Source: Escherichia phage SUT_E1520. From it: a stretch of DNA of 64,000 bases. Within the stretch, counting starts at the first letter, position 1; the number at the start of each line of letters is the position of its first letter. The position numbers were made by a program, and so were the translations under genes. The notes below the pieces were generated by a model that was not told the origin of the DNA, did not search any database, and was given only the letters and a program-made list of their open reading frames with translations. This document shows positions 1-48,863 of this stretch, one piece after another. The stretch lies in the sequence record OQ885479. One strand, written 5' to 3'.

Positions 1-119
1 TGATGAATAGTTTCAATCTTGTTAATAAAATGTTTAATGCTGGTTGACTTGCTACCGTCTAGCAGGTTGCGCAATGCACCCTTTAATACGGTGGCATTAT
101 CAGGTTTATACAGCCTCAT
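1..119 (-). CDS. hypothetical protein, 5' end only (gene continues past window start)
   Basis: ATG at 117-119 (minus) with GAGGAGG Shine-Dalgarno 9 nt upstream; frame open to window edge (MRLYKPDNATVLKGALRNLLDGSKS...). Confidence 0.45.
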   Translation of the reverse strand, partial: MRLYKPDNATVLKGALRNLLDGSKSTSIKHFINKIETIH

Positions 120-385
120 TTGTTAGGCCTCCTCGTTAATCGGTGAGTGAATGATAAAGGTAAATTTCTAGCATAGGCAAATATTATTTTACCTTTTTAT
201 TTTCCTTGCCTAGCGCCTATTTTTATGATAACCGCGCAGCGGTGCAATAAAGAGCAAACCACGGCGAAGCCACCAGGCCGACGCATTGAGGCTTTACTTT
301 AATATTACCTTACAGCGTTTAGCTCGTTAGAATGCGATTTAAGCCGCTTAAAATTGATTGCAGTTGTTAACACTACCTTTTTACC

Positions 386-821
386 CTGTATAAATATACA
401 GTAGGATAACCTGTGGATAAGTCTGTGTAAAAGTCCTTATATCGCCGCCTATCGTGTCAAGTCAAAAAGTGCTGTGGATAACTTTGTGTATAACTTAAAT
501 GATAGTGGTTCTCACTTAGCTAGATGATTTCTTATAGTTATTATTTCTCATTAATTTATATGTATATTATATATCATGAAATAGTTAGTTGGCTAATGAG
601 ATTTTTCCGTGATTAATAGTCTGCTAATAATTCAGGTCGTTACAATCCACCAGCATGATTATCATTCTAGCAATTATTAGTCTGCTATCTTTCCGATGCA
701 TACTAACAAATAAAAGTCAATTAATTTATTTCATAAAATAAGTAGTTATCCACTGGAAAATAAAAGTCAAGTGGATAACTAGGAAAATTTCATTTTTGCT
801 TTTGGGGATAAGTTATCAACA
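386..821. promoter_or_regulatory. ORF-free control region with DnaA-box-like 9-mers plus direct and inverted repeats
   Basis: TGTGGATAA (rc TTATCCACA) at 412-420 and 473-481; TTATCCACT at 746-754 and at 770-778 (rc); TTATCAACA at 813-821; palindrome CTGTATAAATATACAG 386-401; direct repeat AATAAAAGTCAA at about 708-720 and 758-770; no ORF of 60 aa or more across 120-1037. Confidence 0.55.
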
Positions 822-1225
822 AGGCTAGAATGCGCCTAAAACGCTCCAGAACGCAATAAAGTTTTTAGCCATCCCATCATAAGGGGATAAGCCGTTTATC
901 GTTACCACGAGCTTTTTAGATTTTGTCAAGTAGGGCAAAGCAAATATAAATGAAAAAATTACTTGCCTATTTGCTTTATTTTGTGGTATTCGCGCGCCCG
1001 TTTCTTTTAATTTTAGGCCGTCGCCGCACGGTGTCCGGTGAGTTTTACCTTTACATTTCTTTACAAAAATAAGGTTGCGCCATTTTCGGGAATCCCCTAT
1101 TATTTATCTCGTAGGGCGGCAATGACGAACTACACGGCGGGAAGTTTACCGCCACGCTCTTTAAAAATTGGGTACATCTTAAAGCCTATCGGCGGTAAAC
1201 TTATTCATTATAAGGAATCGACGAT

Positions 1226-1429
1226 ATGAAACAAACGCTTTTGATCACTGGCAAGCCTATTAAGGCACTAGATAGCAAAACAAAAAATTTGTTGACAGTA
1301 GCTCAAAGATCAGTAAGATATAGATTCACGCAGTACAAGAAAGGTCGCCAGCAAGGTCTGGAAATGATCTGGCGAAATATTATGATTGACCTAAAAGAAA
1401 ATCATAAAAAATTGCAAAAAATTGTTTGA
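1226..1429 (+). CDS. hypothetical small basic protein (pre-early region)
   Basis: 67-aa ORF, AAGGA 9 nt upstream of ATG; no recognisable domain. Confidence 0.4.
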   Translation: MKQTLLITGKPIKALDSKTKNLLTVAQRSVRYRFTQYKKGRQQGLEMIWRNIMIDLKENHKKLQKIV

Positions 1430-1454
1430 CAACCTAGCCGATAGGTTTTAAGAT
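1426..1454 (+). promoter_or_regulatory. putative sigma70 promoter (TTGACA-17-TAAGAT)
   Basis: consensus -35 TTGACA at 1426-1431, 17-bp spacer, TAAGAT -10; upstream of ORF 1660. Confidence 0.3.
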
Positions 1455-1595
1455 GTACCCAGTTCGATAAGAGCGATAACTTGATAAAATTTGACGGTCG
1501 GTGCTTACCATAATGCATCCCGCCCCCTAACGGGATATAGCGGCCTACGTGGAGTTCTTTAAAATTGATTATATTGGCGAGCGGATTGTTACTTA

Positions 1596-1623
1596 TTACC
1601 TGCTGTTACTTTCTAGCAGGTAA
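1596..1623. promoter_or_regulatory. perfect inverted repeat TTACCTGCT-N10-AGCAGGTAA (operator or RNA hairpin)
   Basis: 9-bp arms read directly; sits about 40 bp upstream of the ORF 1660 start. Confidence 0.4.
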
Positions 1624-1659
1624 TGCGGAACAATCCCCAAATAACTAGGAGTTTATATT

Positions 1660-1911
1660 ATGCAAAACGTTATTACCGCGCCGAAAGTTGGTCAATCCGT
1701 CTTCATTCCTTTCGTTACTAAAACGGATGAATTAACCGGAAAGGCCGAACGTATTAAAGGTGCGGCGCTTATGCCGTTCGATACAATCGACGCGGTATAC
1801 GCTGAAAATGAACGTAGTAACAACGGCAAGCCCGTTTTTAGCGTTCGCGTTAAATCCGGCGATGTTGTAAAGGTTGTTCAACGCAACGAAAAATGGGAAG
1901 CTGTATTGTAA
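1660..1911 (+). CDS. hypothetical pre-early protein
   Basis: 83-aa ORF with AGGAG 8 nt upstream of ATG. Confidence 0.6.
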   Translation: MQNVITAPKVGQSVFIPFVTKTDELTGKAERIKGAALMPFDTIDAVYAENERSNNGKPVFSVRVKSGDVVKVVQRNEKWEAVL

Positions 1912-2007
1912 ATTAGTGTTAACTTTATATCCCCTTATTTCAGGGGGATATAACGATTAACATTAAGTTAATCTAATCCCTTAAATTAAACTAATAGGAG
2001 TTACATC

Positions 2008-2415
2008 ATGACTAACGCTAAAACCGCAAAATTCGCATGGAATGAAGAAAACACTCAGAAAGCTGTTTCCATGTATCAACAGTTAATTAATGAAAACGGT
2101 TTAGATTTCGCAAATAGCGACGGTTTAAAAGAGATTGCAAAAGCAGTGGGCGCGGCTTCTCCCGTATCCGTTCGGTCAAAATTGACCAGCGCAAAAGCAT
2201 ATCAAAAAAGCGATAAGCCTCGCAAAGTTGGCGGCGGTAGTTCAATCCGCAAAGCTCATTATGTACGCGTTATTGCAAAACACGCTATCGATTCCGGCAT
2301 TATCAAAGATGCCGATGATCTGGCAAGCCTTGAAAGTGCAAAACTTGAAACGCTGGACGCAGTAGCGCAATTGTTAGGCGTTGCCGATGAAGTAAAACAA
2401 GCCGCAGGCGAATAA
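2008..2415 (+). CDS. A2: A2-like pre-early protein (T5 A2 is required for second-step DNA transfer)
   Basis: 135-aa ORF with AGGAG SD; size and position immediately upstream of the A1-like gene match the T5 A2-A1 arrangement; assignment by synteny and size only. Confidence 0.6.
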   Translation: MTNAKTAKFAWNEENTQKAVSMYQQLINENGLDFANSDGLKEIAKAVGAASPVSVRSKLTSAKAYQKSDKPRKVGGGSSIRKAHYVRVIAKHAIDSGIIKDADDLASLESAKLETLDAVAQLLGVADEVKQAAGE

Positions 2416-2425
2416 TAGTTATACC

Positions 2426-2452
2426 TTGCCCCCTTTTTTAGTGAGGGGGCAA
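2426..2452 (+). terminator. stem-loop downstream of A2 (TTGCCCCC-N11-GGGGGCAA)
   Basis: 8-bp GC-rich inverted repeat directly after the stop codon; T-run lies in the loop rather than 3' of the stem, so terminator function is uncertain. Confidence 0.35.
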
Positions 2453-2507
2453 TAATATAACTGTTTAGCGATAGTTATTTTCTTCCCTTAAATCAGGAGT
2501 TTTTAAA

Positions 2508-2795: not shown

Positions 2796-4460
2796 ATGAT
2801 TATTTCCGCAGAAAAACAAACCGTTATCCTGAAAATGGCCGCTGACTTTAATTTCTATGGTAAACGTCTGCGCGCTACTAAACTGGAAGTCTGCGACGAT
2901 ATATCAAAAGCGGTCTACGATACAACGAAACACTCCACCGCCATTTGTGATTGGTTGGAAGCAAATAAACCAGCGAAACCGAAAGCGGCGAAAGTAGCAA
3001 AAGCCATTAAAAACGACGAGCGCCCAGAAGCGGCGGGGGTTGTTTCTAGCACGGTTGAACAGTGGGAAGTAAAACAAGGCAAACGCTTTATTATTACATC
3101 GATTCAGAATAATACTTTCCCGCATAAAAACTTTTTGGCCTCACTTGAACAATATGCCAAATTTATCGGCGCTGATTTGCTCGTTTCTAAGTATATTTAT
3201 AATAAAAACGGTTTTCAAAATGGGGAAGGTGCGGATGGAATCAAATATGATTCCGCGTTTGATAAATATATTTGCAGCAAAAACGTGTTTTTAAATAACC
3301 GCCGTTTCGCTTTCATGGCTGAAATTAATGTTTTGCCAACCGCAGATTATCCGCTTTCTGGATTCGCAGAAACTGCAACGGCTTTAAATATTGAAGGTCT
3401 GGCAATTGGTCACGCTAAAATCACCGCTGAAAGTGTGCCAGCTTTAAAAGGTGAAGTAGTGCGCCGTATGTATTCAACCGGAACGGCAACGCTCAAAAAC
3501 TACATTCAGCAGAAAGCAGGACAAAAGGCCGAGGCGCTGCATAACTTCGGTGCGCTTATTGTTGAGTTCGACGACGACGGGGAATTTTTTGTACGCCAGC
3601 TTGAAACGATGGACGAAAGCGGGGTGTTTTATGATCTGAACGTTTGCGCTACTCCTGCCGGATGCTATGAAACATCGGGGCATGTTTTAGGCTTGCAGTA
3701 TGGCGATATTCACGCCGAAAAATTAGATGATGATTGTGCCGTTGCGTCATGGGCTGGCGAGAATAGTTTGCTTGATATTCTTAAACCAAAATATCAGCTT
3801 ATTCATGACGTGCATGATTTTACATCGCGCAATCATCATAACCGTGCATCCGGTGTATTCCTAGCGAAACAGTATGCCGCCGGACGTGATAAAGTTCTGG
3901 ATGATCTTATCGATACGGGGCGCGTGCTGGAATCAATGGAACGTGATTTTAGTCAAACAATCATCGTAGAATCGAATCACGATTTGGCGCTATCCCGCTG
4001 GCTTGATGATCGTAATGCTAACATTAAAGACGATCCCGCCAACGCCGAACTATATCACCGCCTAAATGCTGCAATTTACGCGGCAATCGGTGAGCATGAC
4101 GATACTTTCAACGTGCTAGATTATGCGTTGCGCAAGGTTGCAGGTTGTGAGTTTAACGCCATTTTCCTAACCACTGACCAATCTTTCAAGATTGCAGGTA
4201 TTGAATGCGGCGTACACGGTCACAACGGCATTAACGGCAGCCGTGGCAACCCGAAACAATTTAAGAAATTGGGCAAGTTAAACACGGGGCATACGCATAC
4301 CGCCAGCATTTACGGCGGCGTATACACCGCTGGCGTAGCTGGTAGTCTGGATATGGGTTACAACGTTGGCGCGTCAAGCTGGACGCAGACGCATTTAATT
4401 ACCTATGCAAACGGTCAGCGCACTTTGATTGACTTTAAAAACGGTAAATTCTTTGCGTAA
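2796..4460 (+). CDS. A1: A1-like pre-early protein, calcineurin-type metallophosphoesterase fold
   Basis: 554 aa (T5 A1 is about 556 aa); metallophosphatase-like motifs GDIHAE, ESNHD, GHTH; GGAG SD; located between A2-like and dmp-like genes. Confidence 0.8.
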   Translation: MIISAEKQTVILKMAADFNFYGKRLRATKLEVCDDISKAVYDTTKHSTAICDWLEANKPAKPKAAKVAKAIKNDERPEAAGVVSSTVEQWEVKQGKRFIITSIQNNTFPHKNFLASLEQYAKFIGADLLVSKYIYNKNGFQNGEGADGIKYDSAFDKYICSKNVFLNNRRFAFMAEINVLPTADYPLSGFAETATALNIEGLAIGHAKITAESVPALKGEVVRRMYSTGTATLKNYIQQKAGQKAEALHNFGALIVEFDDDGEFFVRQLETMDESGVFYDLNVCATPAGCYETSGHVLGLQYGDIHAEKLDDDCAVASWAGENSLLDILKPKYQLIHDVHDFTSRNHHNRASGVFLAKQYAAGRDKVLDDLIDTGRVLESMERDFSQTIIVESNHDLALSRWLDDRNANIKDDPANAELYHRLNAAIYAAIGEHDDTFNVLDYALRKVAGCEFNAIFLTTDQSFKIAGIECGVHGHNGINGSRGNPKQFKKLGKLNTGHTHTASIYGGVYTAGVAGSLDMGYNVGASSWTQTHLITYANGQRTLIDFKNGKFFA

Positions 4461-5283: not shown

Positions 5284-6018
5284 ATGAATAAAGCTATTAT
5301 GAATATTTCCCGTAATTTCCCGCATATTTCCCGCGTCATGATTTGGGATTTAGACGGCACTATCATTAATTCTTTCCATCGTGTAGCGCCTTGCTTTGAT
5401 AGTGAGGGCAATTTAGATTTAAATAAGTATAAAAATGAAGCCTGCAAACATCATTTAATAATGCAAGATACTTTATTGCCATTGGTTGAATATATGCGCC
5501 AATGTATGAATGATGCAAATACTTTAAACATTATTTGCACCGCTCGACTAATGAGCAAGTCGGACTATTATTATTTGCGTAAACAAGGGTTGCGCGGTCG
5601 TGGTGATAGTAATATCCGTGTATTTTCCCGCGATACACTACACAAATATTTTGAAGCTGATAAAGTTAGCGAGATATACCACAGCAAAGACGCCATTTAT
5701 AAATCGTATTATTTTGAATTATTTAAACAATTATATCCAAACGCTGACTTTACAATGATTGACGATCATAAAGGCGTGCTATCAGCGGCGGCATCATACG
5801 GATTTAAAACGCTGGACGCGCAAGCCATTAACGATATTCTATCAATCGGCGTTGCATTGATAGGTGAAACCTTTATCGATGAATCTCTCGATGATGATAA
5901 TGATTATCAGTTCCTAGCTGATCGTTTGAAATTATGTTGGGAAAGTATGACCGAGGAAGAACGCGCAGAATATAGTTGCAGCCCGCAACAATATATTGAG
6001 AAATTAAAAGTTGCGTAA
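5284..6018 (+). CDS. dmp: 5'-deoxyribonucleotidase Dmp-like (HAD-type phosphatase)
   Basis: 244 aa; N-terminal HAD motif I-like MIWDLDGTI; conserved TAAATCCCTTTAATGGAG leader shared with the A1-like gene. Confidence 0.75.
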   Translation: MNKAIMNISRNFPHISRVMIWDLDGTIINSFHRVAPCFDSEGNLDLNKYKNEACKHHLIMQDTLLPLVEYMRQCMNDANTLNIICTARLMSKSDYYYLRKQGLRGRGDSNIRVFSRDTLHKYFEADKVSEIYHSKDAIYKSYYFELFKQLYPNADFTMIDDHKGVLSAAASYGFKTLDAQAINDILSIGVALIGETFIDESLDDDNDYQFLADRLKLCWESMTEEERAEYSCSPQQYIEKLKVA

Positions 6019-6169: not shown

Positions 6170-6415
6170 TTAGCGCATAGAAGGGTCATCAAACCTGTGT
6201 TCTGGTCTGAACTCCCGGAATCTCTTCCGCGACGCCCGAGATCCATCCGACCACTCTCGCTCAAACTCCGCACGTTTCTCGTCAAACTTCCGCTCCCTTT
6301 CCGCAATCTCCCGCGTCACTCCCGCAATATATTCCCGATGCTTATTGATTGCCGCAGTCGTCCCGAAAACTCCCGCGAGTATCCCGATAATAAAAGCAAT
6401 TATAATACTAAACAT
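6170..6415 (-). CDS. small membrane protein 5 (81 aa), TM helix plus highly charged tail
   Basis: MFSIIIAFIIGILAGVFGTTAA followed by REIAERERKFDEKRAEFEREW. Confidence 0.5.
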   Translation of the reverse strand: MFSIIIAFIIGILAGVFGTTAAINKHREYIAGVTREIAERERKFDEKRAEFEREWSDGSRASRKRFREFRPEHRFDDPSMR

Positions 6416-6602
6416 CTAATTCCCTCTCAATTTGCAGAATACGGGTGCTATCACAACGTTGCAGTAGTACTAGCTTTTCTAGAATAACTTGTTGTTGTTT
6501 TACCTGGGCTTCTAGAGTTTTTAGGCGGAGATACACGATACGAGAGACAATGAGGATTACCCAGACTAATATTACCATTAGTGTAATTGCCACTTCCATC
6601 AT
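6408..6602 (-). CDS. small membrane peptide 4 (64 aa)
   Basis: MMEVAITLMVILVWVILIVS hydrophobic N-terminus followed by a coiled-coil-like tail; 8-nt overlap with next gene. Confidence 0.5.
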   Translation of the reverse strand: MMEVAITLMVILVWVILIVSRIVYLRLKTLEAQVKQQQVILEKLVLLQRCDSTRILQIERELDV

Positions 6603-7465: not shown

Positions 7466-9388
7466 ATGAGTTTTTTCGCTGGCAAGCTAAATAATAAATC
7501 TATACTCTCTCTGCGCAGGGGTAGTGGCGGAGATACTAATCAACATATTAATCCTGACTCTCAGACCATATTCCATTCAGATATGCCCCATGTTATCATA
7601 ACAGAAACTCACTCCACAGGGTTAAGGCTAGATCAAGGTGCTGGAGATTACTACTGGTCTGATATGCCTAGCAGAATTACCCAGTTACATAATAATGATC
7701 CTAATAGAGTTGTGCTGACGGAGATTGAGTTCTCAGATGGCTCTAGACATATGTTATCCGGTATGTCTATGGGGGTAGGTGCTAAGGCGTACGGAATTAT
7801 AAATCCACAGGTCATGTCCCAGGGTGGCTTAAAAACACAAATAACAGCTAGTGCTGATCTATCCCTTGATGTAGGTTATTTTAACAGTGGAACTAGTGGA
7901 ACTATTCCCCAGAAGCTTAGAGATGGTACTGGATGTCAGCATATGTTTGGCGCCTTTAGTGGGCGTAGAGGATTTGCATCTAGTGCAATGTACTTAGGTG
8001 GTGCCGCTCTTTATAAGTCTGCCTGGGATGGTTCAGGATATATTGTGCCCAGCTCAGGATCCATAACTATCCCTAGCGACTACGTTAGGCATCCCGGAGC
8101 TAGAAACTTTGGATTTAACGCCATATATGTTCGTGGTAGATCTTGCAATAGAGTTCTTTACGGTATGGAAGGGCCTAACTATACCACTGCTGGAGCTGTG
8201 CACGGTGCTTCTAGTTCTGGGGCTCTTAACTTTATAGATAACCCTAGCAATCCCTCGGCTCCTAAGTACTCTGTAGGTTTCGCACGTGCTGATCCCACTA
8301 ACTATGCTTATTGGGAAAGTATGGGTGATCCGAATGATGCTGCTAATGGGCCTATAGGTATATATAGTGAGCACCTCGGTATTTATCCATCTAAAATTAC
8401 TTGGTATGTTACCAATCTAGTATACAATGGCTCAGGATACAGTATTGATAGTGGGCTATTTACTGGCAATGATATTAAACTTAGCCCAAGAGAGTTTATT
8501 ATTAAAGGGGTTAATGTTAATAATACGTCATGGAAGTTTATTAACTTTGTTGAGAAAAACTTTAATGTAGGTAGCAGAGCTGATTTTCGTGATGTTGGGT
8601 GTAACTTGAGTATGGGTGCCCCCTCTACTGGAGTTTCTGGCATAGCAACATTTGGGCTGCCCACTACGGAAAGCAATAACGCACCAAGTATTAAAGGTGG
8701 TAACGTTGGTGGTTTAAATACTAATGTAGTTAGTATTTATAACTTTTTACCTTCAGCATCTTGGTATGTTTCTAGTAATCCTCCAAAAATAGGCAGCAAT
8801 TATGGAGATGTTTGGAGTGAGAATCTTTTACCTTTAAGACTTCTAGGTGGTAGCGGAAGTACTGTACTATCTGGTAACATAGTATTTCAGGGTAATGGTT
8901 CCGTGCATGTTGGCACCGTGGGACTAGATCTTAATAGTAGTAGAAATGGCGCAATTGTATGTACTATGGAGTTCCTGGATGACACATGGTTGTCTGCAGG
9001 AGGTATTGGCTGCTTTAATCCTACGGAAATGCTATCTAAAGGCGCCGAATATGGAGATAGTAGGTTCAGAATGGGTGGCAATACTATCGATAAAAAACTT
9101 CACCAAATATTGTCCCTACCTGCAGGAGAATATGTACCATTTTTTACTATTAAAGGTACTGTAGTAAATGCTTGTAAATTACAGGCTGCTGGGTATACTC
9201 CAACTCCGTACTGGGTATCTGGGTTGCCGGGATCAGTAGGTCAAACGGGTTACTATACTCTAACATATTATATGAGAAATGATGGAAATAATAATATCTC
9301 TATTTGGTTAGAATCCTCTATGAGCAATATAATTGGCATGAAAGCATGCTTACCAAATATTAAACTTATAATTCAACGCCTTACCTAA
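7466..9388 (+). CDS. oad: receptor-binding tail protein pb5
   Basis: 640 aa, equal to T5 pb5; adjacent and divergent to llp; GGAG SD. Confidence 0.85.
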
Positions 9389-9398
9389 AGGAGGAAAT

Positions 9399-9881
9399 AT
9401 GGCAAATGATGTATTAGTACCAGATCTTATGTCCCCTGAAGGGATGGATGTAATTGAAGCGTATTTACAGTGCGGCAGCGATGTGCCTTCTGCCGCACGT
9501 AGTCTTGGGATGTCCGAAATTGCTTTCCGAGATATTATGAATCGTAGTGAAGTTAAGAATTACTTAAACGATATTTTTATGGAGAGTGGATTCCGTAACA
9601 GAGATCGTTTATTTGGTGTTCTAGATGAGGTTATCAAGCGTAAACTAGAGGAACTGGAAGAAACTGGCATGGGTTCTGACCAAGATATTATGGATATTCT
9701 CTGGAAAGCACATAAAATGAAAATGGAAGAAATGAAAATGATGGTAGAATTGGAGAAAGTGAAGGCAGCAGCCCGTACTCCAGCTAACCAGACCAACATC
9801 CAGAATAATATTATTGCTGGAGCTGGGGATCAAAACTACATGGACTTAATTACTTCCCTAGCTACTGGAGGTAAGAAGTAA
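9399..9881 (+). CDS. terminase small subunit (putative)
   Basis: 160 aa; HTH-like segment [17 protein letters not shown]; immediately upstream of and overlapping the large terminase start. Confidence 0.65.
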
Positions 9882-11197
9882 TGGAAGTATCAAGACCCTA
9901 CGTTAACACAGTAGATGTTATTGATTTCGGAATAGACAAACGTTTCTTTCGTTTACCTGTTTCGGGAATACTAGCACAAGAAGGTATTACACCTAATGGT
10001 CCTCAAATAGCAATCATCAATGCTTTAGAGGACCCTAGACATCGTTTTGTAACGGCGTGTGTATCACGCCGTGTAGGTAAATCCTTCATCGCATACACAC
10101 TTGGGTTCCTAAAATTGTTGGAACCTAATGTGAAAGTGTTAGTAGTTGCCCCTAACTACTCACTAGCCAACATCGGATGGTCTCAGATTCGGGGTCTTAT
10201 TAAAAAATATGGCCTACAAACCGAACGTGAGAATGCTAAAGATAAAGAGATTGAGCTGGCAAACGGCTCACTGTTTAAACTAGCTTCTGCAGCTCAGGCT
10301 GACTCCGCAGTTGGACGTTCATATGACTTTATCATCTTTGATGAGGCGGCAATTTCCGATGTGGGTGGTGATGCCTTTAGAGTTCAGTTGCGTCCTACCC
10401 TAGATAAACCAAACTCTAAGGCTCTATTTATCTCTACTCCTCGTGGTGGTAACTGGTTTAAAGAGTTTTATGCCTACGGATTTGATGATACATTACCTAA
10501 CTGGGTATCTATTCATGGTACATATCGTGATAACCCACGTGCTGATCTGAATGATATCGAAGAAGCACGTCGTACAGTTAGTAAAAACTACTTTCGCCAA
10601 GAATACGAGGCTGACTTCTCTGTATTCGAAGGTCAGATCTTCGATACCTTTAATGCTATAGACCATGTTAAAGACCTTAAAGGTATGCGTCACTTCTTTA
10701 AAGATGATGAAGCATTCGAAACATTGCTTGGTATTGACGTTGGTTATCGTGATCCTACAGCAGTTCTTACTATTAAATATCATTACGATACGGATACTTA
10801 CTATGTATTAGAAGAGTACCAGCAGGCGGAGAAAACCACAGCTCAGCATGCTACGTATATTCAGCACTGTATAGATCGTTATAAAGTTGATCGTGTTTTT
10901 GTTGACTCTGCCGCAGCTCAGTTCCGTCAGGACTTAGCTTATGAACATGAAATTGCATCGGCTCCAGCTAAAAAATCTGTCCTAGATGGATTAGCATGTT
11001 TACAAGCACTATTCCAACAAGGCAAGATTATTGTGGATGCTTCATGTTCCTCATTAATTCACGCATTGCAGAATTACAAGTGGGATTTCCAAGAAGGTGA
11101 AGAAAAATTATCACGTGAAAAACCACGTCATGATGCTAACTCTCACCTCTGTGATGCTCTGCGCTATGGAATTTACTCTATTTCCCGTGGTAAATAA
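9881..11197 (+). CDS. terminase large subunit
   Basis: 438 aa; Walker A-like VSRRVGKSF, Walker B-like FIIFDEA, C-terminal nuclease-type acidic residues. Confidence 0.9.
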   Translation: MEVSRPYVNTVDVIDFGIDKRFFRLPVSGILAQEGITPNGPQIAIINALEDPRHRFVTACVSRRVGKSFIAYTLGFLKLLEPNVKVLVVAPNYSLANIGWSQIRGLIKKYGLQTERENAKDKEIELANGSLFKLASAAQADSAVGRSYDFIIFDEAAISDVGGDAFRVQLRPTLDKPNSKALFISTPRGGNWFKEFYAYGFDDTLPNWVSIHGTYRDNPRADLNDIEEARRTVSKNYFRQEYEADFSVFEGQIFDTFNAIDHVKDLKGMRHFFKDDEAFETLLGIDVGYRDPTAVLTIKYHYDTDTYYVLEEYQQAEKTTAQHATYIQHCIDRYKVDRVFVDSAAAQFRQDLAYEHEIASAPAKKSVLDGLACLQALFQQGKIIVDASCSSLIHALQNYKWDFQEGEEKLSREKPRHDANSHLCDALRYGIYSISRGK

Positions 11198-17330: not shown

Positions 17331-18737
17331 ATGTCTTTACAACTATTACGTAATACTCGAATCTTCGTGTCTACGGTTAAGACTGGTCATAATAAGACCA
17401 ACACGCAAGAGATTCTAGTTCAGGATGATATTTCTTGGGGTCAGGACAGTAACTCAACAGATATTACTGTTAATGAAGCTGGTCCGCGTCCAACTCGTGG
17501 TTCTAAACGTTTTAATGACTCTTTAAACGCGGCTGAGTGGAGTTTCTCTACTTATATCCTTCCGTATAAAGATAAAACTACTAACAAACAGATTGTTCCT
17601 GACTATATGTTATGGCACGCTCTTTCTAGTGGTAAAGCTCTTAACCTAGAAGGTGACACAGGAGCACATAATAACGAAACCAATTTTATGGTTAACTTTA
17701 AAGATAACGCGTACCACGAACTGGCAATGCTGCATATCTACATCCTGACTGACAAAGCATGGAGTTACATCGACTCTTGCCAGATCAACCAGGCAGAAGT
17801 TAACGTTGATATTGAGGATATTGGTCGTGTAACTTGGTCAGGTAATGGTAACCAGCTTATTCCTTTGGATGAGCAACCATTTGATCCTGATACTGTAGGT
17901 ATTGATGATGAAACTTATATGACTATTCAGAGTTCTTATATTAAGAACAAACTGACTATCCTGAAAATTAAGGATATGGATTCTGATAAGGCATATGATA
18001 TCCCTATTACTGGTGGTACTTTCACCATTAATAACAACATCACGTACCTAACCCCGAATATTATGTCCCGTGTAAATATTCCGATCGGTTCATTTACTGG
18101 TGCATTTGAATTAACTGGTTCACTAACTGCCTATCTAAATGATAAATCTCTTGGTTCTATGGAACTGTACAAAGATCTTATCAAAACCTTGAAGGTAGTT
18201 AACAAGTTTGAAATCGCACTTATCCTTGGTGGTGAATACGATGATGAACGTCCGGCAGCTGTGCTGGTTGCTAAACAGGCTCACGTTAACATTCCTACTA
18301 TTGAGACTGATGATGTACTTGGTACTTCAGTAGAGTTTAAAGCTATCCCTACAGATTTGGATACTGGTGATGAAGGTTATCTTGGTTTCTCTAACAAGTA
18401 TACTAAAACCACTGTGGCTAATCTGATTGCTACAGGAGATGGAGCTAAAACTCCACCAAAACTAGTTGAATCAATCACAGTTAAATCTGTTGGTAATGCT
18501 ACTTCAGTACAGAACAGTAATACTCTACAGATGTCTGTTGAAGTAACTCCGCCAGATGCTACTAATAGTGCTGTAACTTGGTCTATTTCTAGTGGTGATG
18601 CAGCTACAATTGATCCAGAATCTGGTTTATTAACTGCGGACACTACTAAGACAGGTTCTGTTACTGTCAAAGCTGTAGCTAAAGACGGTTCTGGTGTAGA
18701 AGGTACTAAGAGCATTACAGTTACTGCTGGTGGCTAA
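17331..18737 (+). CDS. major tail tube protein (pb6-like) with C-terminal Ig-like domain
   Basis: 468 aa; C-terminal Ig-like segment; AGGAG SD. Confidence 0.85.
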   Translation: MSLQLLRNTRIFVSTVKTGHNKTNTQEILVQDDISWGQDSNSTDITVNEAGPRPTRGSKRFNDSLNAAEWSFSTYILPYKDKTTNKQIVPDYMLWHALSSGKALNLEGDTGAHNNETNFMVNFKDNAYHELAMLHIYILTDKAWSYIDSCQINQAEVNVDIEDIGRVTWSGNGNQLIPLDEQPFDPDTVGIDDETYMTIQSSYIKNKLTILKIKDMDSDKAYDIPITGGTFTINNNITYLTPNIMSRVNIPIGSFTGAFELTGSLTAYLNDKSLGSMELYKDLIKTLKVVNKFEIALILGGEYDDERPAAVLVAKQAHVNIPTIETDDVLGTSVEFKAIPTDLDTGDEGYLGFSNKYTKTTVANLIATGDGAKTPPKLVESITVKSVGNATSVQNSNTLQMSVEVTPPDATNSAVTWSISSGDAATIDPESGLLTADTTKTGSVTVKAVAKDGSGVEGTKSITVTAGG

Positions 18738-36982: not shown

Positions 36983-37940
36983 ATTTCGCAGCTCTAGCCA
37001 AGATTCTATCAATGTCGCCTTGAGATAGCTTCTCAACTTCACGGAAGTAAAGTTCAAGTTCGCCTAACATATCAAGATCAACAAGATTTAACTTAGCGTC
37101 TTTAGTAACTCGATGGTTAATCTTCTTATCTAATAAATCAGAGTCTTTGATAGACTTTAATTGAACAACGTCACCAGTAACTTCATAGACTACACGATCA
37201 TAATCACTAGGTTCCATCTCTTCACCAGCTCCGATTGTTTTACGAATCAGTTGTGGTAAATCACCGAGTTCAATCCATTCTACTTTTAATGTGTCGGTAT
37301 CAACGATAAAGCAACCATTTGTACCTTTTGTGCGTTCTCTATGGAACGATGTAGTTAATGGAGACCCTGGGTAGAGGAGTCTAGTAGATCCGATAGTCTG
37401 GCTATTAGTATAAGAATGTAAATCGCCAGCAATTACAGTATCATAACAGTTGTACTTAGTTAGATCAATTTCTGGTTTTACATGTGGAGGGATTTCACCA
37501 CGAACATGCGTGAAACATAGTTTTGATTCAGATGGTTTCCACTTAGATTTATGGATTTCGTCATATGGAACAATATCAAATTCAGGGGAACGATATGGTT
37601 TGGTAATTACTTCCCACTTACCACTCGTTACTTTATTAATAACTCCTGCATAATGATATAGACATGAAATGGTTTTCGTTAACATTTCATGATTTCCAGT
37701 AAAGATTTTGCCTGGATGGTCAAGTCTTGACATGAACTGTTCAAGCAGTTCTATTTCTTCTGACGACGGGTCGGCAACATCAAGTATATCACCACCAGCA
37801 ATATGAAGATCACAGTTATGATTATGGAATATATCATTTAACCGTTCTCCTAGCATCAGGAAGCGACGCTTCTGCCATTCCTTTGGAACTTTATCTTGTC
37901 CTAGTTTGATATGATGATCAGCACTAAATAATATTCTCAT
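36963..37940 (-). CDS. SbcD/Mre11-like nuclease (T5 D12-like)
   Basis: 325 aa; metallophosphoesterase motifs MRILFSADHH, GNHE. Confidence 0.85.
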   Translation of the reverse strand: MRILFSADHHIKLGQDKVPKEWQKRRFLMLGERLNDIFHNHNCDLHIAGGDILDVADPSSEEIELLEQFMSRLDHPGKIFTGNHEMLTKTISCLYHYAGVINKVTSGKWEVITKPYRSPEFDIVPYDEIHKSKWKPSESKLCFTHVRGEIPPHVKPEIDLTKYNCYDTVIAGDLHSYTNSQTIGSTRLLYPGSPLTTSFHRERTKGTNGCFIVDTDTLKVEWIELGDLPQLIRKTIGAGEEMEPSDYDRVVYEVTGDVVQLKSIKDSDLLDKKINHRVTKDAKLNLVDLDMLGELELYFREVEKLSQGDIDRILARAAKYVKDYN

Positions 37941-46158: not shown

Positions 46159-46926
46159 TTATTCAGCAGCCGCAGCTTTTGCATCCAGTTTAGCACGCTT
46201 AGCGGCACCATCATAGTCCTTAGCAACCAGACCACGACGAGACAGCATAGATTTAACACCGCGCTCAGATTTACCAGTTTTCTCAGCGATCTCAGCAACA
46301 GTCATGTTAACCAGATCCAGACCTTCTAACAGATCTTCACGAGTTTTAGCACTTGAGGTTTCCTGTACCGGCATAGCAGCGATACGACCTTCACGAAGCA
46401 GACTCAGAGCTTTACCACGGATCTGCTTAATATTGCGACCGAAGTGAGCAGCGATAGCTTCAATAGTAGCACCAGCAACAACCTGATTAACAAAATCAGT
46501 TTCTTCATCCGGAGTAAAGGAACGAACAGCAGCAGCTTTTTCAGTTGGTTTAACAGAAGCGGTCATTTCCAGGCTCAGAATCTTACCCTGTACCTGCTTA
46601 GCACCGAACTGACCACCAGCTACAGCAGCAGCGATTTCAGCATAGGTATACTGACCAGCATGAGCGTTCAGGAAATCAACCAGTTCAGCTTCCTGCTCAG
46701 GAGTCCACGGGGATTTCTGTACTTCGTTAGCTTTCTGTACTTCAAAACCTTCTTTACGCAGTTTAGAGCCAACAGAGCGAGCGGTAACATCTTTGCCAGT
46801 TTCAGCAGCCAGTTCAGCGGCGATAGCGGCTACTTGTTCTTGAGAGATTACAGAAACACCCAGAGCAGTGGCTTTTGCTTTCAGAGACTCGGTTACACCT
46901 TCTACGTTCCAGTTCAGTTTAGACAT
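46159..46926 (-). CDS. DNA-binding protein with four internal HTH-like repeats (T5 D5-like, putative)
   Basis: 255 aa; repeated segments of the type TGKSERGVKSMLSRRGL; position between ligase and helicase. Confidence 0.55.
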   Translation of the reverse strand: MSKLNWNVEGVTESLKAKATALGVSVISQEQVAAIAAELAAETGKDVTARSVGSKLRKEGFEVQKANEVQKSPWTPEQEAELVDFLNAHAGQYTYAEIAAAVAGGQFGAKQVQGKILSLEMTASVKPTEKAAAVRSFTPDEETDFVNQVVAGATIEAIAAHFGRNIKQIRGKALSLLREGRIAAMPVQETSSAKTREDLLEGLDLVNMTVAEIAEKTGKSERGVKSMLSRRGLVAKDYDGAAKRAKLDAKAAAAE

Positions 46927-47891: not shown

Positions 47892-48863
47892 TTACTCGTA
47901 TACTCGCTCTACTATGCACGGGATTACACCACCAGCACGAATCACTCGAATCTGGCAACCGATCTCTAGATCAAGAGAGTTAATATAATCAACGTTATTA
48001 AGAGTCGCTTTAACAATTGTAGCATCATCAATAATTACCGGTTCGAAATAACCAACTGGAGTTACTTTACCAGAAGCCCCTACCTGCCATTCAACTTTAG
48101 TAAGAGTTGTAACCTCGCCTTCTTCATCCTCTTTAATAGCGAATGCTCCACGAGGGAATTTATTAGTCCAGCCTTCACGGAAGAATTTGTTGTTGTCATT
48201 AATACGAACAACTTTACCATCCGTCGGAATCCATTTAAAGAAGGAACGCACATTAACAACTGTTAAGAAGTTCTCATTCTCCAGCCAAAGCATATCTTTT
48301 AAATATGCTTCTGTAATACCTACAGATTCAGCAGAACACTGGATACCATATGCAACGAAGATTAAACCACCTTCTCCGATACGTTGTACAAAATCATCAC
48401 TATCTTTGAGGTTAATAGCACCAGAGGCAAAGTTACGTTTATTTTCTACTTCTTTTGTAATTAGAACTTCACCAGTGATTTGAGTAGGTACTTTTTGGGA
48501 AATCTTTTTAGGGATATTCAGCAATCTTACGTTGCTTGTGACATCATTCCCTAGAATACCATTACCACGAGTTAGTGCTTGAACAAATTCGCCATTAATA
48601 TATAACAGAGAAATTGCACAACCATCTAACTTATCAGTTTCTACTTGACCTAACGGGTTAAACGGAGGTTTATCTCCACGATTATAATAAACTTTCTGTA
48701 AAGAATACATACGATACAGATGTGGAATATCGCCCTTAGGTCCGATCTCTTCTTCTAACGGAAAGCGTTTTACCAGGCAATCATACTCTTCATCAGAGAT
48801 TAAAGACATACCTTGATAATATGCTTCTTGGCAACGTTTAATAAAGTCTTTTACATTGGTCAT
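47892..48863 (-). CDS. NAD-dependent DNA ligase, N-terminal part (adenylation plus OB domain) expressed as separate subunit
   Basis: 323 aa; KLDG adenylation motif (ETDKLDGCAIS); OB-domain RAGGVIP motif at C-terminus. Confidence 0.8.
   Translation of the reverse strand: MTNVKDFIKRCQEAYYQGMSLISDEEYDCLVKRFPLEEEIGPKGDIPHLYRMYSLQKVYYNRGDKPPFNPLGQVETDKLDGCAISLLYINGEFVQALTRGNGILGNDVTSNVRLLNIPKKISQKVPTQITGEVLITKEVENKRNFASGAINLKDSDDFVQRIGEGGLIFVAYGIQCSAESVGITEAYLKDMLWLENENFLTVVNVRSFFKWIPTDGKVVRINDNNKFFREGWTNKFPRGAFAIKEDEEGEVTTLTKVEWQVGASGKVTPVGYFEPVIIDDATIVKATLNNVDYINSLDLEIGCQIRVIRAGGVIPCIVERVYE

What the first reader, a model, noticed from the sequence alone, without database searches (positions are those of the whole stretch)
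120..1037. About 1 kb ORF-free divergent control region rich in DnaA-box-like sites and repeats
Between a minus-strand gene starting at 119 and the first plus-strand pre-early ORFs there is no ORF of 60 aa or more. The region contains two perfect DnaA-box 9-mers (412-420, 473-481), three one-mismatch boxes (746-754, 770-778, 813-821), a perfect 16-bp palindrome (386-401) and short direct repeats. T5's first-step-transfer stop region is described, as far as I recall, as ORF-free with repeats and DnaA-box-like sequences; this could be the counterpart, or a host-DnaA-dependent origin or regulatory switch. The distance to the late-gene junction does not obviously match the expected injection-stop position, so the assignment is open.
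Basis: partly seen in the sequence, partly recalled or inferred. Interest (0 to 1): 0.55.

Follow-up and report, generated by a model that had tools for sequence, protein, structure and literature searches.

The report
T5 pre-early hub: LexA-like plus DnaA sites
This gene-free stretch is the known central control region of the first DNA that a T5-like phage injects; it is not the injection stop site, but it holds an inverted twin of that site's core, whose palindrome closely matches a host LexA (SOS) operator, a resemblance absent from the T5 papers I could read or search.

Summary
Window 120-1037 has no ORF of 60 aa or more, and 7 of the window's 21 DnaA-box matches (one mismatch allowed) lie in 412-821. 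One detail is wrong: the "perfect 16-bp palindrome" is 7-bp arms around a non-palindromic AA.

The window is a T5-like (Tequintavirus) terminal repeat. The region corresponds to T5 "Repeat Regions 1+2", between the divergent pre-early operons. The annotated injection stop signal (iss) lies about 3.3-3.8 kb away, outside the window.

Positions 386-518 are the described IRC-spacer-IRD element. It has four same-strand DnaA boxes in two pairs and an inverted copy in the iss.

My addition: the palindrome CTGTATAAATATACAG is a near-consensus LexA operator. It is the most conserved part of both copies in 31 T5-like genomes. It recurs next to TTATCCACA boxes at both sites in Pectobacterium, Proteus, Aeromonas and Vibrio relatives.

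Best reading: the region holds the gene-011 promoter plus a docking module for host DnaA and probably LexA, partnered with the iss copy. Binding and function are untested. An origin, or the iss itself, is unlikely.

The parts
1..119 (-). 5' part of the T5 gene 011 homologue, first gene of the rightward pre-early operon. The gene is cut by the window edge; its start codon is at 117-119.
   Evidence: The T5 alignment shows RBS GAGGAGG followed by ATG.
125..203 (-). Promoter of gene 011. It has an A/T-rich upstream element, -35 TTGCCT at 180-175 and -10 TATCAT at 156-151. It is orthologous to the T5 promoter annotated at 6411-6489.
   Evidence: Near-identical alignment to T5 6411-6489. Consensus scan hit. 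Listed as experimentally characterised in T5 by the preprint read.
319..353 (.). 35-nt repeat containing GTTAGAATGCG, with an inverted copy beside the iss module in a relative. A related TAGAATGCGC occurs at 827-836.
   Evidence: L002 6319-6353 against 2578-2612, 77%. Alignment.
386..518 (.). 132-bp composite module, equal to T5 IRC-spacer-IRD. It is the inverted paralogue of the module in the injection stop region, which lies outside the window.
   Evidence: Length is conserved: 2 of 63 alignment rows (the window row plus 62 copies) carry an indel. Literature.
384..403 (.). LexA (SOS) operator-like palindrome ccCTGTATAAATATACAGta. It matches 15 of 16 positions of CTGT(AT)4ACAG.
   Evidence: PWM score 24.0 bits; the next best in the 64 kb is 15.4. 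It has among the lowest entropies of the module's elements. It is retained in distant genera.
412..432 (-). DnaA box pair 1: TTATCCACA (412-420) and TTTTACACA (424-432), same orientation, 3 bp apart.
473..493 (-). DnaA box pair 2: TTATCCACA (473-481) and TTATACACA (485-493), same orientation, 3 bp apart, 61 bp from pair 1.
494..515 (.). Conserved tail motif CTTAAATGATAGTGGTTCTCAC, shared by the central and iss copies. It is partly kept in Proteus phage 1 (GATAGTGTTTCTCAC). Its ligand is unknown.
520..720 (.). AT-rich variable segment (23-35% GC). It holds the 15-nt direct repeat at 612-626 and 673-687 and a Chi sequence at 647-654 on the minus strand. In T5 and some relatives an HNH endonuclease gene replaces about 628-716.
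743..781 (.). 15-nt inverted repeat carrying two one-mismatch DnaA-like boxes, TTATCCACT at 746-754 (+) and 770-778 (-). It is lineage-specific and absent from T5 itself.
803..821 (.). Two divergently oriented one-mismatch boxes: TTATCCCCA (803-811, minus strand) and TTATCAACA (813-821, plus strand). They belong to the same lineage-specific allele.
923..950 (+). Candidate extra leftward promoter: TTGTCA, 16 nt, TATAAA. The -35 is conserved across the aligned T5-like loci, including the Klebsiella-phage-like L041/L042 (A2 66% identical), while the spacer sequence varies. This is inferred, not mapped.
   Evidence: Sequence. Alignment. Its non-coding nature is supported.

Best explanation
**What it is.** The region is the central non-coding hub of the first-step-transfer (pre-early) DNA of a T5-like phage. 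It is the orthologue of T5 Repeat Regions 1+2.

**What it contains.**
- The sigma-70 promoter of the rightward pre-early operon (gene 011).
- A 132-bp module at 386-518.
- A lineage-specific extra cluster of DnaA-like boxes at 743-821.
- A probable additional leftward promoter.

**How the module is built.** It is laid out as a docking platform for two abundant host DNA-binding proteins. One near-consensus LexA operator is followed by two pairs of same-orientation DnaA boxes. The boxes in each pair are 3 bp apart and the pairs are 61 bp apart. An inverted twin lies 1.6-4 kb away in the injection stop region. Together the two copies bracket the rightward operon, with their palindromes facing inward.

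**Inferred mechanism.** Host DnaA, and probably LexA, load on the module within seconds of DNA entry, before any phage protein exists. The central copy then works together with the iss copy as an architectural element, through anchoring or bridging. This element holds the injected DNA during the pause between first- and second-step transfer. Any effect on pre-early transcription would be secondary.

**What is shown and what is not.** Identity, anatomy and conservation are shown. Binding by DnaA and LexA is predicted from sequence. The role in the pause is inference.
For: **Identity.**
- Window 1-1300 is 99.8% identical to EC148 and 98.6% to MM-1, where it lies inside the annotated LTR.
- It maps between T5.009 and T5.011.

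**Twin module.**
- A 132-nt inverted repeat is found in close relatives.
- It is present in all 31 T5-like genomes sampled through the A2 gene, 1.6-4.0 kb apart.

**Selection on motifs rather than on homology.**
- Central and iss copies in the same genome are 75.5% identical. Between genomes the figure is 75.1%, so there is no concerted evolution.
- Orthologous copies are 83.5% (central) and 90.7% (iss) identical.
- Column entropy is among the lowest in the LexA-like 20-mer (0.14-0.20), box 1, box 4 and the tail motif. It is higher in the spacer and the flanks.
- Only 2 of 63 alignment rows (the window row plus 62 copies) carry an indel.

**DnaA boxes.**
- The cluster has P of about 7e-11.
- The central copies keep strict-consensus boxes in 27, 29, 17 and 27 of 31 genomes.

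**LexA operator.**
- The window site scores 24.0 bits and the iss copies 28.7. E. coli SOS boxes recalled from memory score 7-27, and the next best site in the window scores 15.4.

**Deep conservation.** In My1, Proteus phage 1, Aeromonas TS3, Vibrio Pontus and Vibrio D124 the A1 protein is only 31-66% identical.
- The outer site keeps a strong LexA-like palindrome (21.6-27.4 bits) next to TTATCCACA-type boxes in all five.
- The central divergent site does so clearly in My1, Proteus phage 1, TS3 and D124 (18.2-26.7 bits). In Pontus it is only a degenerate half-palindrome (14.0 bits), outranked by a second palindrome inside the outer module.
- This holds although nucleotide homology between the two copies is no longer detectable in two of them (Proteus phage 1 and TS3).

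**Literature.**
- The DnaA boxes and the two-copy arrangement have been described, and a role in the stop proposed.
- A minor FST band of about 5.8 kb, close to the central copy, is reported there.
Against: - No binding or functional experiment exists. The 2023 BF23 paper says the boxes are untested.
- The central copy is degraded in T5 itself and absent in Davison's "type 4" phages, so it is at most auxiliary.
- The module lies more than 200 bp from the mapped gene-011 promoter, so it is not a classical operator.
- Proteins that bind DNA already inside the cell would be expected to ratchet it inward rather than stop it.
- From my own memory, T5 plates on recA hosts. If so, LexA cleavage cannot be required for growth.
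- The LexA matrix was built from sites recalled from memory.
- The box variants (TGT-NN-ATAA) could also fit another protein.
Confidence: 0.6

Rival explanations
1. Classical transcriptional control. The LexA-like operator and DnaA boxes are operators that make pre-early transcription respond to the host's SOS or replication state. Targets could be gene 011 or an unmapped promoter inside the module. There would be no role in DNA transfer.
For: - The region lies between divergent promoters.
- A weak promoter-like site, TTTACA-17-TATCCT at 431-403 on the minus strand, overlaps boxes 1-2 and would start inside the palindrome.
- In Vibrio and Aeromonas relatives, promoter-like -24/-12 elements lie within tens of bp of the modules.
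- From memory, DnaA is known to modulate promoters (dnaA, mioC, lambda pR), and uvrB carries both LexA and DnaA sites.
Against: - The module is 200-340 bp upstream of the mapped gene-011 promoter.
- The iss twin lies downstream of the operon's terminator, where no promoter is known.
- The internal promoter-like site scores only 9 of 12 and follows from the box sequences themselves.
Confidence: 0.22
2. The motifs are sites for phage-encoded proteins, for example the A2 DNA-binding protein or the A1/A2 complex. Their resemblance to host DnaA and LexA sites would be coincidental or competitive.
For: - A1 and A2 are needed for second-step transfer.
- The box variants share TGT-NN-ATAA rather than the full DnaA consensus, especially in the iss copies.
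- Extra conserved motifs with no known host ligand exist: TGTCAAGTCAAA and CTTAAATGATAGTGNTTCTCAC.
Against: - The exact host consensus sequences (TTATCCACA and CTGTAT-N4-ATACAG) persist in phages whose A1 is only 31-41% identical. A co-evolving phage protein and its site would be expected to drift.
- The same composite also occurs in phage contigs where the fetched stretch (6-15 kb around the match) encodes no detectable A1 or A2.
- The transfer stop happens without phage protein synthesis (from memory of the classical T5 literature; not in any paper read here).
Confidence: 0.12
3. A host-DnaA-dependent replication origin, made of DnaA boxes next to an AT-rich unwinding region.
For: - The DnaA box cluster lies beside a stretch of 23-27% GC at about 500-800.
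- In some unrelated phages the same composite adjoins very AT-rich DNA.
Against: - There is no GATC in 120-1037, against 2.7 expected.
- No 13-mer-type repeat family was found.
- Literature cited maps T5 origins near the genome centre, and the replication genes arrive only with the second-step DNA.
- The element is duplicated in inverted orientation and sits in a terminal repeat.
Confidence: 0.05
4. It is itself the injection stop signal.
For: - It shares the repeat-rich, ORF-free, DnaA-box character of the iss.
- A minor FST band of about 5.8 kb is reported second-hand.
Against: - The iss is annotated at T5 9140-10149, at the inner end of the repeat. This region maps to 4.9-6.5 kb.
- In EC148 and MM-1 the iss copy is 3.7-3.8 kb further on, outside the window.
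Confidence: 0.03

Closest known systems
T5 Repeat Region 2 (IRC-spacer-IRD) plus Repeat Region 1 of the left terminal repeat (Wang et al. 2005; Davison 2015; Davison 2020 bioRxiv 10.1101/866236)
   Same: - Same position between the two pre-early operons.
- Same element of about 131 bp with four DnaA-type boxes in pairs 3 bp apart.
- Same inverted partner in the iss region.
   Different: - Here the two repeat regions are contiguous, with no HNH gene insertion.
- All four boxes fit the DnaA consensus, whereas T5 has lost one.
- A second cluster of DnaA-like boxes at 743-821 is present that T5 lacks.
- The LexA-operator reading of the palindrome does not appear in the Davison 2020 preprint.
T5 injection stop signal (iss; IRD'-spacer-IRC' in Repeat Region 3)
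   Same: It is a paralogous module with the same motif order and length: palindrome, two box pairs, TGTCAA, and the tail motif.
   Different: - It sits 1.6-4 kb away and in the opposite orientation.
- The iss copies are more conserved (90.7% against 83.5%).
- The iss copies have weaker inner boxes, TTATTAACA or TTATCAACA.
- The iss lies at the FST/SST boundary; this region does not.
E. coli DnaA-box clusters (oriC R boxes, the mioC/dnaA promoter regions, datA)
   Same: - The 9-mers are identical to oriC R1/R4 (TTATCCACA) and R2 (TTATACACA).
- Same-orientation boxes 2-3 bp apart are the arrangement reported for cooperative DnaA binding and titration at mioC.
- Both points come from memory of the oriC literature and Hansen et al. 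2007.
   Different: - No GATC cluster and no 13-mer unwinding element.
- No evidence of origin or titration function.
- A LexA-like operator is attached.
LexA (SOS) operators of Gammaproteobacteria, consensus TACTGTATATATATACAGTA
   Same: - It matches 15 of 16 core positions, and the iss copies match 19 of 20.
- The score lies within or above the range of known operators.
- The arms CTGTAT/ATACAG are conserved while the central 4 bp vary, as in natural SOS boxes.
   Different: - It does not overlap a mapped promoter.
- It occurs in a virulent phage, in two inverted copies, each fused to DnaA boxes.

Membership tests
T5 IRC-spacer-IRD element (FST Repeat Region 2) | Lies in the terminal repeat between the leftward (dmp-A1-A2) and rightward (011-017) pre-early operons | tested here: met
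T5 IRC-spacer-IRD element (FST Repeat Region 2) | Element of about 131 bp with an inverted copy in the iss region of the same genome | tested here: met
   Met in EC148 (99.8% identical) and MM-1, and in 31 T5-like genomes. The partner of this window's own copy lies outside the window.
T5 IRC-spacer-IRD element (FST Repeat Region 2) | Four DnaA or DnaA* boxes in two pairs, 3 bp within a pair, constant spacer | tested here: met
   Boxes at 412-420 and 424-432, and at 473-481 and 485-493; the pairs are 61 bp apart start to start
T5 injection stop signal (iss) | Located at the inner end of the terminal repeat, at the FST/SST boundary (about 7.9% of the genome) | tested here: not met
   The iss is at T5 9140-10149; this region corresponds to T5 about 4.9-6.5 kb
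T5 injection stop signal (iss) | Acts in cis to halt DNA transfer | not testable with these tools
   Needs shear or Southern assays on infected cells
DnaA-dependent replication origin (oriC type) | Cluster of DnaA boxes | tested here: met
DnaA-dependent replication origin (oriC type) | Adjacent AT-rich unwinding element with repeated 13-mers, and a GATC cluster | tested here: not met
   An AT-rich stretch is present, but there is no repeated 13-mer family and no GATC
DnaA-dependent replication origin (oriC type) | Initiation of replication at the site | not testable with these tools
   Literature cited places T5 origins near the genome centre
LexA operator (SOS box) | CTGT-N8-ACAG palindrome with an AT-rich centre and TA flanks | tested here: met
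   The right flank is TA. The left flank is CC here and TA in the iss copies.
LexA operator (SOS box) | Overlaps or adjoins the promoter it represses | tested here: inconclusive
   It is more than 200 bp from the mapped gene-011 promoter. Only a weak promoter-like site overlaps it.
LexA operator (SOS box) | Bound by LexA and released on RecA-mediated cleavage | not testable with these tools
   Needs EMSA, footprinting or ChIP

The most novel reading that the evidence does not exclude
The fused LexA-operator and DnaA-box module is the cis element of two-step DNA transfer. It is present twice, in inverted orientation, in the first-injected DNA across the five Demerecviridae genera examined, and it recurs in unrelated phages.

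In this reading, pre-existing host LexA and DnaA load on the entering DNA. They lock the two copies together at the membrane and so pause injection. Release is coupled to phage A1/A2 action. It may also be coupled to the SOS signal produced by A1-dependent host DNA breakdown, through RecA activation and LexA cleavage. The correctly oriented Chi sites in the same DNA segment would fit that link.
Probability: 0.15. Interest if true: 0.85.

Novelty: new member of a known kind. Interest (0 to 1): 0.5.

Why it matters
How T5 stops after injecting 8% of its genome and then restarts has been open since the 1960s. Papers from 2023 and 2026 still call the mechanism poorly understood and the DnaA boxes untested.

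The region flagged here is already described, so the finding itself is not a discovery. The comparison does sharpen the question in four ways:
- The two module copies are kept by selection on motifs and spacing, not by sequence homology.
- The best-conserved motif is a near-consensus LexA operator that the accessible literature does not mention.
- The LexA-like and DnaA pairing survives across genera whose proteins have diverged to about 30% identity.
- The same pairing recurs in unrelated phages.

This gives concrete and inexpensive tests: LexA and DnaA footprints, lexA and dnaA host mutants, and point mutations in both repeat copies.

Tried and rejected
- **Rfam scan of window 1-2500 at permissive E-values.** Only sub-threshold chance hits to miRNA and frameshift models, so no known RNA family.
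- **Hidden small protein gene.** The 40-aa ORF at 950-1072 has a conserved first 20 codons or so, but its frame and length vary and T5 lacks the ATG. I treated it as non-coding. T5.008/hdi, by contrast, is clearly conserved as a protein.
- **Function through DNA-DNA homology (recombination or inversion).** Rejected because central and iss copies of one genome are no more alike than copies from different genomes.
- **Sigma-54 promoter in this window.** None found, although relatives have them. The GG-N10-GC in the tail motif of the central copy is not conserved.
- **IHF and CRP consensus matches in the spacer and tail motif.** Checked by eye; none were convincing.
- **Literature.** Davison 2015 (PMC4743489) could not be opened. 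Wang 2005 and Heusterspreute 1987 are subscription-journal papers I did not try to open. I therefore cannot exclude that one of them already notes the LexA resemblance. Searches for "phage T5" with "SOS box", Tequintavirus with LexA, LexA with T5-like or iss, and "DnaA box" with "LexA box" and phage found nothing relevant.
- **Phages of hosts with a different LexA motif.** Testing whether the palindrome changes in Alphaproteobacteria phages was dropped. Their A1 homologues sit in replication modules, not in a T5-type FST region.

Full report
**1. What the window is.**
- Window 1-1300 is 99.8% identical to Escherichia phage EC148 and 98.6% to ECOP18, MM-1 and MM-2. 527 phage records match, nearly all T5-like.
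- In MM-1 the match lies inside the annotated left terminal repeat.
- The window's plus strand is T5's minus strand.
- ORFs: 2008-2415 is A2, 2796-4460 is A1, 5284-6018 is dmp and 1226-1429 is T5.008/hdi. The minus-strand gene starting at 119 is the gene 011 homologue.
- In T5 itself an HNH endonuclease gene (hegG) is inserted here, replacing roughly window 628-716.

**2. Checking the observation.**
- There is no ORF of 60 aa or more.
- Both perfect TTATCCACA 9-mers of the whole 64 kb are here, at 412-420 and 473-481.
- With one mismatch allowed, 7 of the window's 21 matches lie in 412-821. About 0.12 are expected, so P is about 7e-11.
- The "perfect 16-bp palindrome" is really CTGTATA-AA-TATACAG, that is 7-bp arms around a non-palindromic centre.
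- The direct repeats are real.

**3. Not the iss, but its twin.**
- T5's injection stop signal is annotated at 9140-10149, at the inner end of the repeat. This region corresponds to T5 about 4.9-6.5 kb.
- In MM-1 and EC148, a 132-nt inverted repeat links window-equivalent 386-518 to a copy 3.7-3.8 kb away in the iss region.
- The window itself holds no second copy.
- This is Davison's IRC-spacer-IRD element, the inverted partner of IRD'-spacer-IRC' in the iss. He describes it with eight DnaA-type boxes in pairs 3 bp apart and proposes that it may help arrest transfer through membrane-bound DnaA.
- Later papers state that these boxes have never been tested and that second-step transfer remains poorly understood.
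- The gene-011 promoter is one of three experimentally characterised pre-early promoters. It aligns almost base for base with window 203-125 on the minus strand.
- P_H22 and P_D/E20 map to 1292-1319 and 1426-1454, outside the finding.

**4. Anatomy and conservation of the module.** I collected 31 T5-like genomes through the A2 gene, without reference to the boxes. I aligned both copies from each.

The motif order is:
- palindrome, then 10 bp;
- box 1, 3 bp, box 2;
- a 40-bp spacer containing TGTCAAGTCAAA;
- box 3, 3 bp, box 4;
- CTTAAATGATAGTGNTTCTCAC.

All four boxes lie on one strand.

Conservation results:
- Central and iss copies of the same genome are 75.5% identical. Copies from different genomes are 75.1% identical.
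- Orthologous copies are 83.5% (central) and 90.7% (iss) identical.
- The two copies therefore diverged before these phages radiated and are not homogenised by recombination. What they share is held by selection.
- Column entropy is among the lowest in the palindrome 20-mer (0.14-0.20 bits), box 1, box 4 and the tail motif. It is higher in the spacer and the flanks.
- Only two of 63 alignment rows (the window row plus 62 copies) carry an indel, so spacing is constrained.
- The central copies carry better DnaA boxes than the iss copies, whose inner boxes are TTATTAACA or TTATCAACA.
- In EC148 both palindromes face the enclosed rightward operon, and every box reads 5'-TTATCCACA-3' toward it.

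**5. The palindrome looks like a LexA operator.**
- CTGTATAAATATACAG matches 15 of 16 positions of CTGT(AT)4ACAG. The iss copies (TACTGTATATTTATACAGTA) match 19 of 20 positions of the SOS-box consensus.
- I built a matrix from E. coli SOS boxes recalled from memory, so it is approximate. With it the window site scores 24.0 bits and the iss copies 28.7.
- The recalled operators score 7-27 in leave-one-out scoring, and the next best site in the 64 kb scores 15.4.
- CTGT-N8-ACAG occurs only three times in the window, and the other two are poor matches.
- The Davison preprint does not mention LexA or SOS, and four literature searches found nothing relevant. Three key older papers were not consulted: Davison 2015 could not be opened, and Wang 2005 and Heusterspreute 1987 were not attempted.

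**6. Deep conservation.** I examined five distant Demerecviridae found through A1 (31-66% identical): Pectobacterium My1, Proteus phage 1, Aeromonas TS3, Vibrio Pontus and Vibrio D124.
- Each keeps the divergent architecture.
- The outer, iss-like site carries a strong LexA-like palindrome (21.6-27.4 bits) beside TTATCCACA-type boxes in all five.
- The central divergent site does so clearly in My1, Proteus phage 1, TS3 and D124 (18.2-26.7 bits). Pontus keeps only a degenerate half-palindrome there (14.0 bits).
- The arms CTGTAT/ATACAG and the CAGTA flank are kept, while the central four bases vary.
- In Proteus phage 1 and Pontus the outer module keeps the order palindrome, 9-11 bp, box, 2-3 bp, box, about 41-43 bp, box.
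- In two of the five (Proteus phage 1 and TS3), nucleotide homology between the two copies is no longer detectable.
- Exact host consensus sequences persist while phage proteins have drifted to about 30% identity. This is the main argument that host DnaA and LexA are the ligands, rather than a co-evolving phage protein.

**7. The second box cluster (743-821).**
- This cluster belongs to one of at least two alternative alleles.
- The window, EC148 and about 14 sampled genomes carry it, and divergent Klebsiella-type relatives keep part of it.
- T5 and many others carry an unrelated allele without DnaA-like boxes.
- It is therefore lineage-specific and cannot be essential.

**8. Mechanism.**
- Shown: the identity, anatomy, conservation and spacing constraint.
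- Predicted from sequence: high-affinity binding of DnaA and LexA.
- Inferred: the central copy enters first and is loaded by pre-existing host proteins. It then acts with the iss copy as an architectural or anchoring pair during the transfer pause. A secondary effect on transcription is possible.
- Points against this reading:
  - There are no binding data.
  - The central copy is dispensable in some phages.
  - It lies more than 200 bp from the mapped promoter.
  - Intracellular binding would be expected to pull DNA in rather than stop it.
  - From memory, T5 grows on recA hosts.
- Rivals considered:
  - purely transcriptional operators;
  - sites for A2 or A1/A2;
  - an origin, which is unlikely because there is no GATC, no 13-mer family, and origins map elsewhere;
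  - the iss itself, which is excluded by position.

**9. Verdict.**
- The flagged feature is real and non-random, but it is already described for T5 and its relatives. Here it is a new member with a contiguous layout and an extra box cluster.
- The added value is the LexA-operator reading and its conservation in the five distant Demerecviridae examined. These make a long-standing question directly testable.

Noticed in passing
window 647-654 (-), 18726-18733 (+), 37792-37799 (-), 46613-46620 (-), 47929-47936 (-); loci L002-L048: Chi (GCTGGTGG) occurs 5 times in the window against 0.9 expected, and none of 100 shuffles reached 5. In every T5-like terminal repeat examined, 1-3 Chi sites lie between the iss module and the central region. 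Almost all are in the orientation that RecBCD would recognise when entering from the genome's right (iss-side) end. None faces the left end.
   Followed up: partly
L048 7021, 7038, 8179, 10343, 10635, 10969; L047 678, 4724; L046 5490, 9558; L044 8089: Sigma-54-type -24/-12 elements (TGGCA[CT]-N5-TTGC) sit next to the LexA-like and DnaA modules in Vibrio, Aeromonas and Pectobacterium relatives. About 0.004 per locus are expected by chance. None occurs in this window or in EC148. This suggests that some Demerecviridae drive pre-early transcription from RpoN-type promoters.
   Followed up: partly
L049, L074/L079/L093/L113, L076, L080/L099/L102/L122/L125, L083/L094/L123, L109: The same composite, a LexA-like palindrome directly followed by tandem TGTGGATAA boxes 2-3 bp apart, occurs in unrelated phage contigs with no A1 or A2 in the fetched stretch. 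It lies in divergent intergenic regions, in several of them between packaging genes (terminase, portal) and replication genes (primase-helicase, DNA polymerase).
   Followed up: partly
window 393-394 and the equivalent positions in L002-L042: The two central bases of the palindrome are AA or TT (reverse complements of each other) in 50 of 62 copies, in both copy types and independently of each other. They are never AT or TA. This looks like repeated inversion of the centre, for example by template switching at the palindrome.
   Followed up: partly
window 1155-1193 and 1437-1475; 1281-1297 and 1415-1431: A 39-nt inverted repeat (85%) places a copy of the -10 and start region of the promoter at 1426-1454 upstream of T5.009, on the opposite strand. 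Both leftward promoters share the upstream motif CAAAAAATT(T)GTTGACA. This is probably IRA/IRA' of the T5 literature.
   Followed up: no
window 700-830 against L005, L008 (T5) and others: The segment holding the second box cluster exists as two unrelated alleles among close relatives. The T5-type allele instead has TTGTTAA(A/T)-type repeats with a 12-bp period and an AGTCTTGA...TCAAGAC inverted repeat.
   Followed up: partly
search hits H18 and H63 (OR846838.1, OR848616.1): Short records labelled "Listeria phage LM 4-11-1" and "LM 4-14-1" are 94-96% identical to this T5-like terminal repeat and A1 gene. They are likely mislabelled or contaminant sequences.
   Followed up: no
window 6037 onward: The EC148 record starts at about window 6037. 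The window continues past the left end of the terminal repeat into other genome sequence. So the source is either the right terminal repeat read in reverse or an assembly with the repeat collapsed.
   Followed up: no
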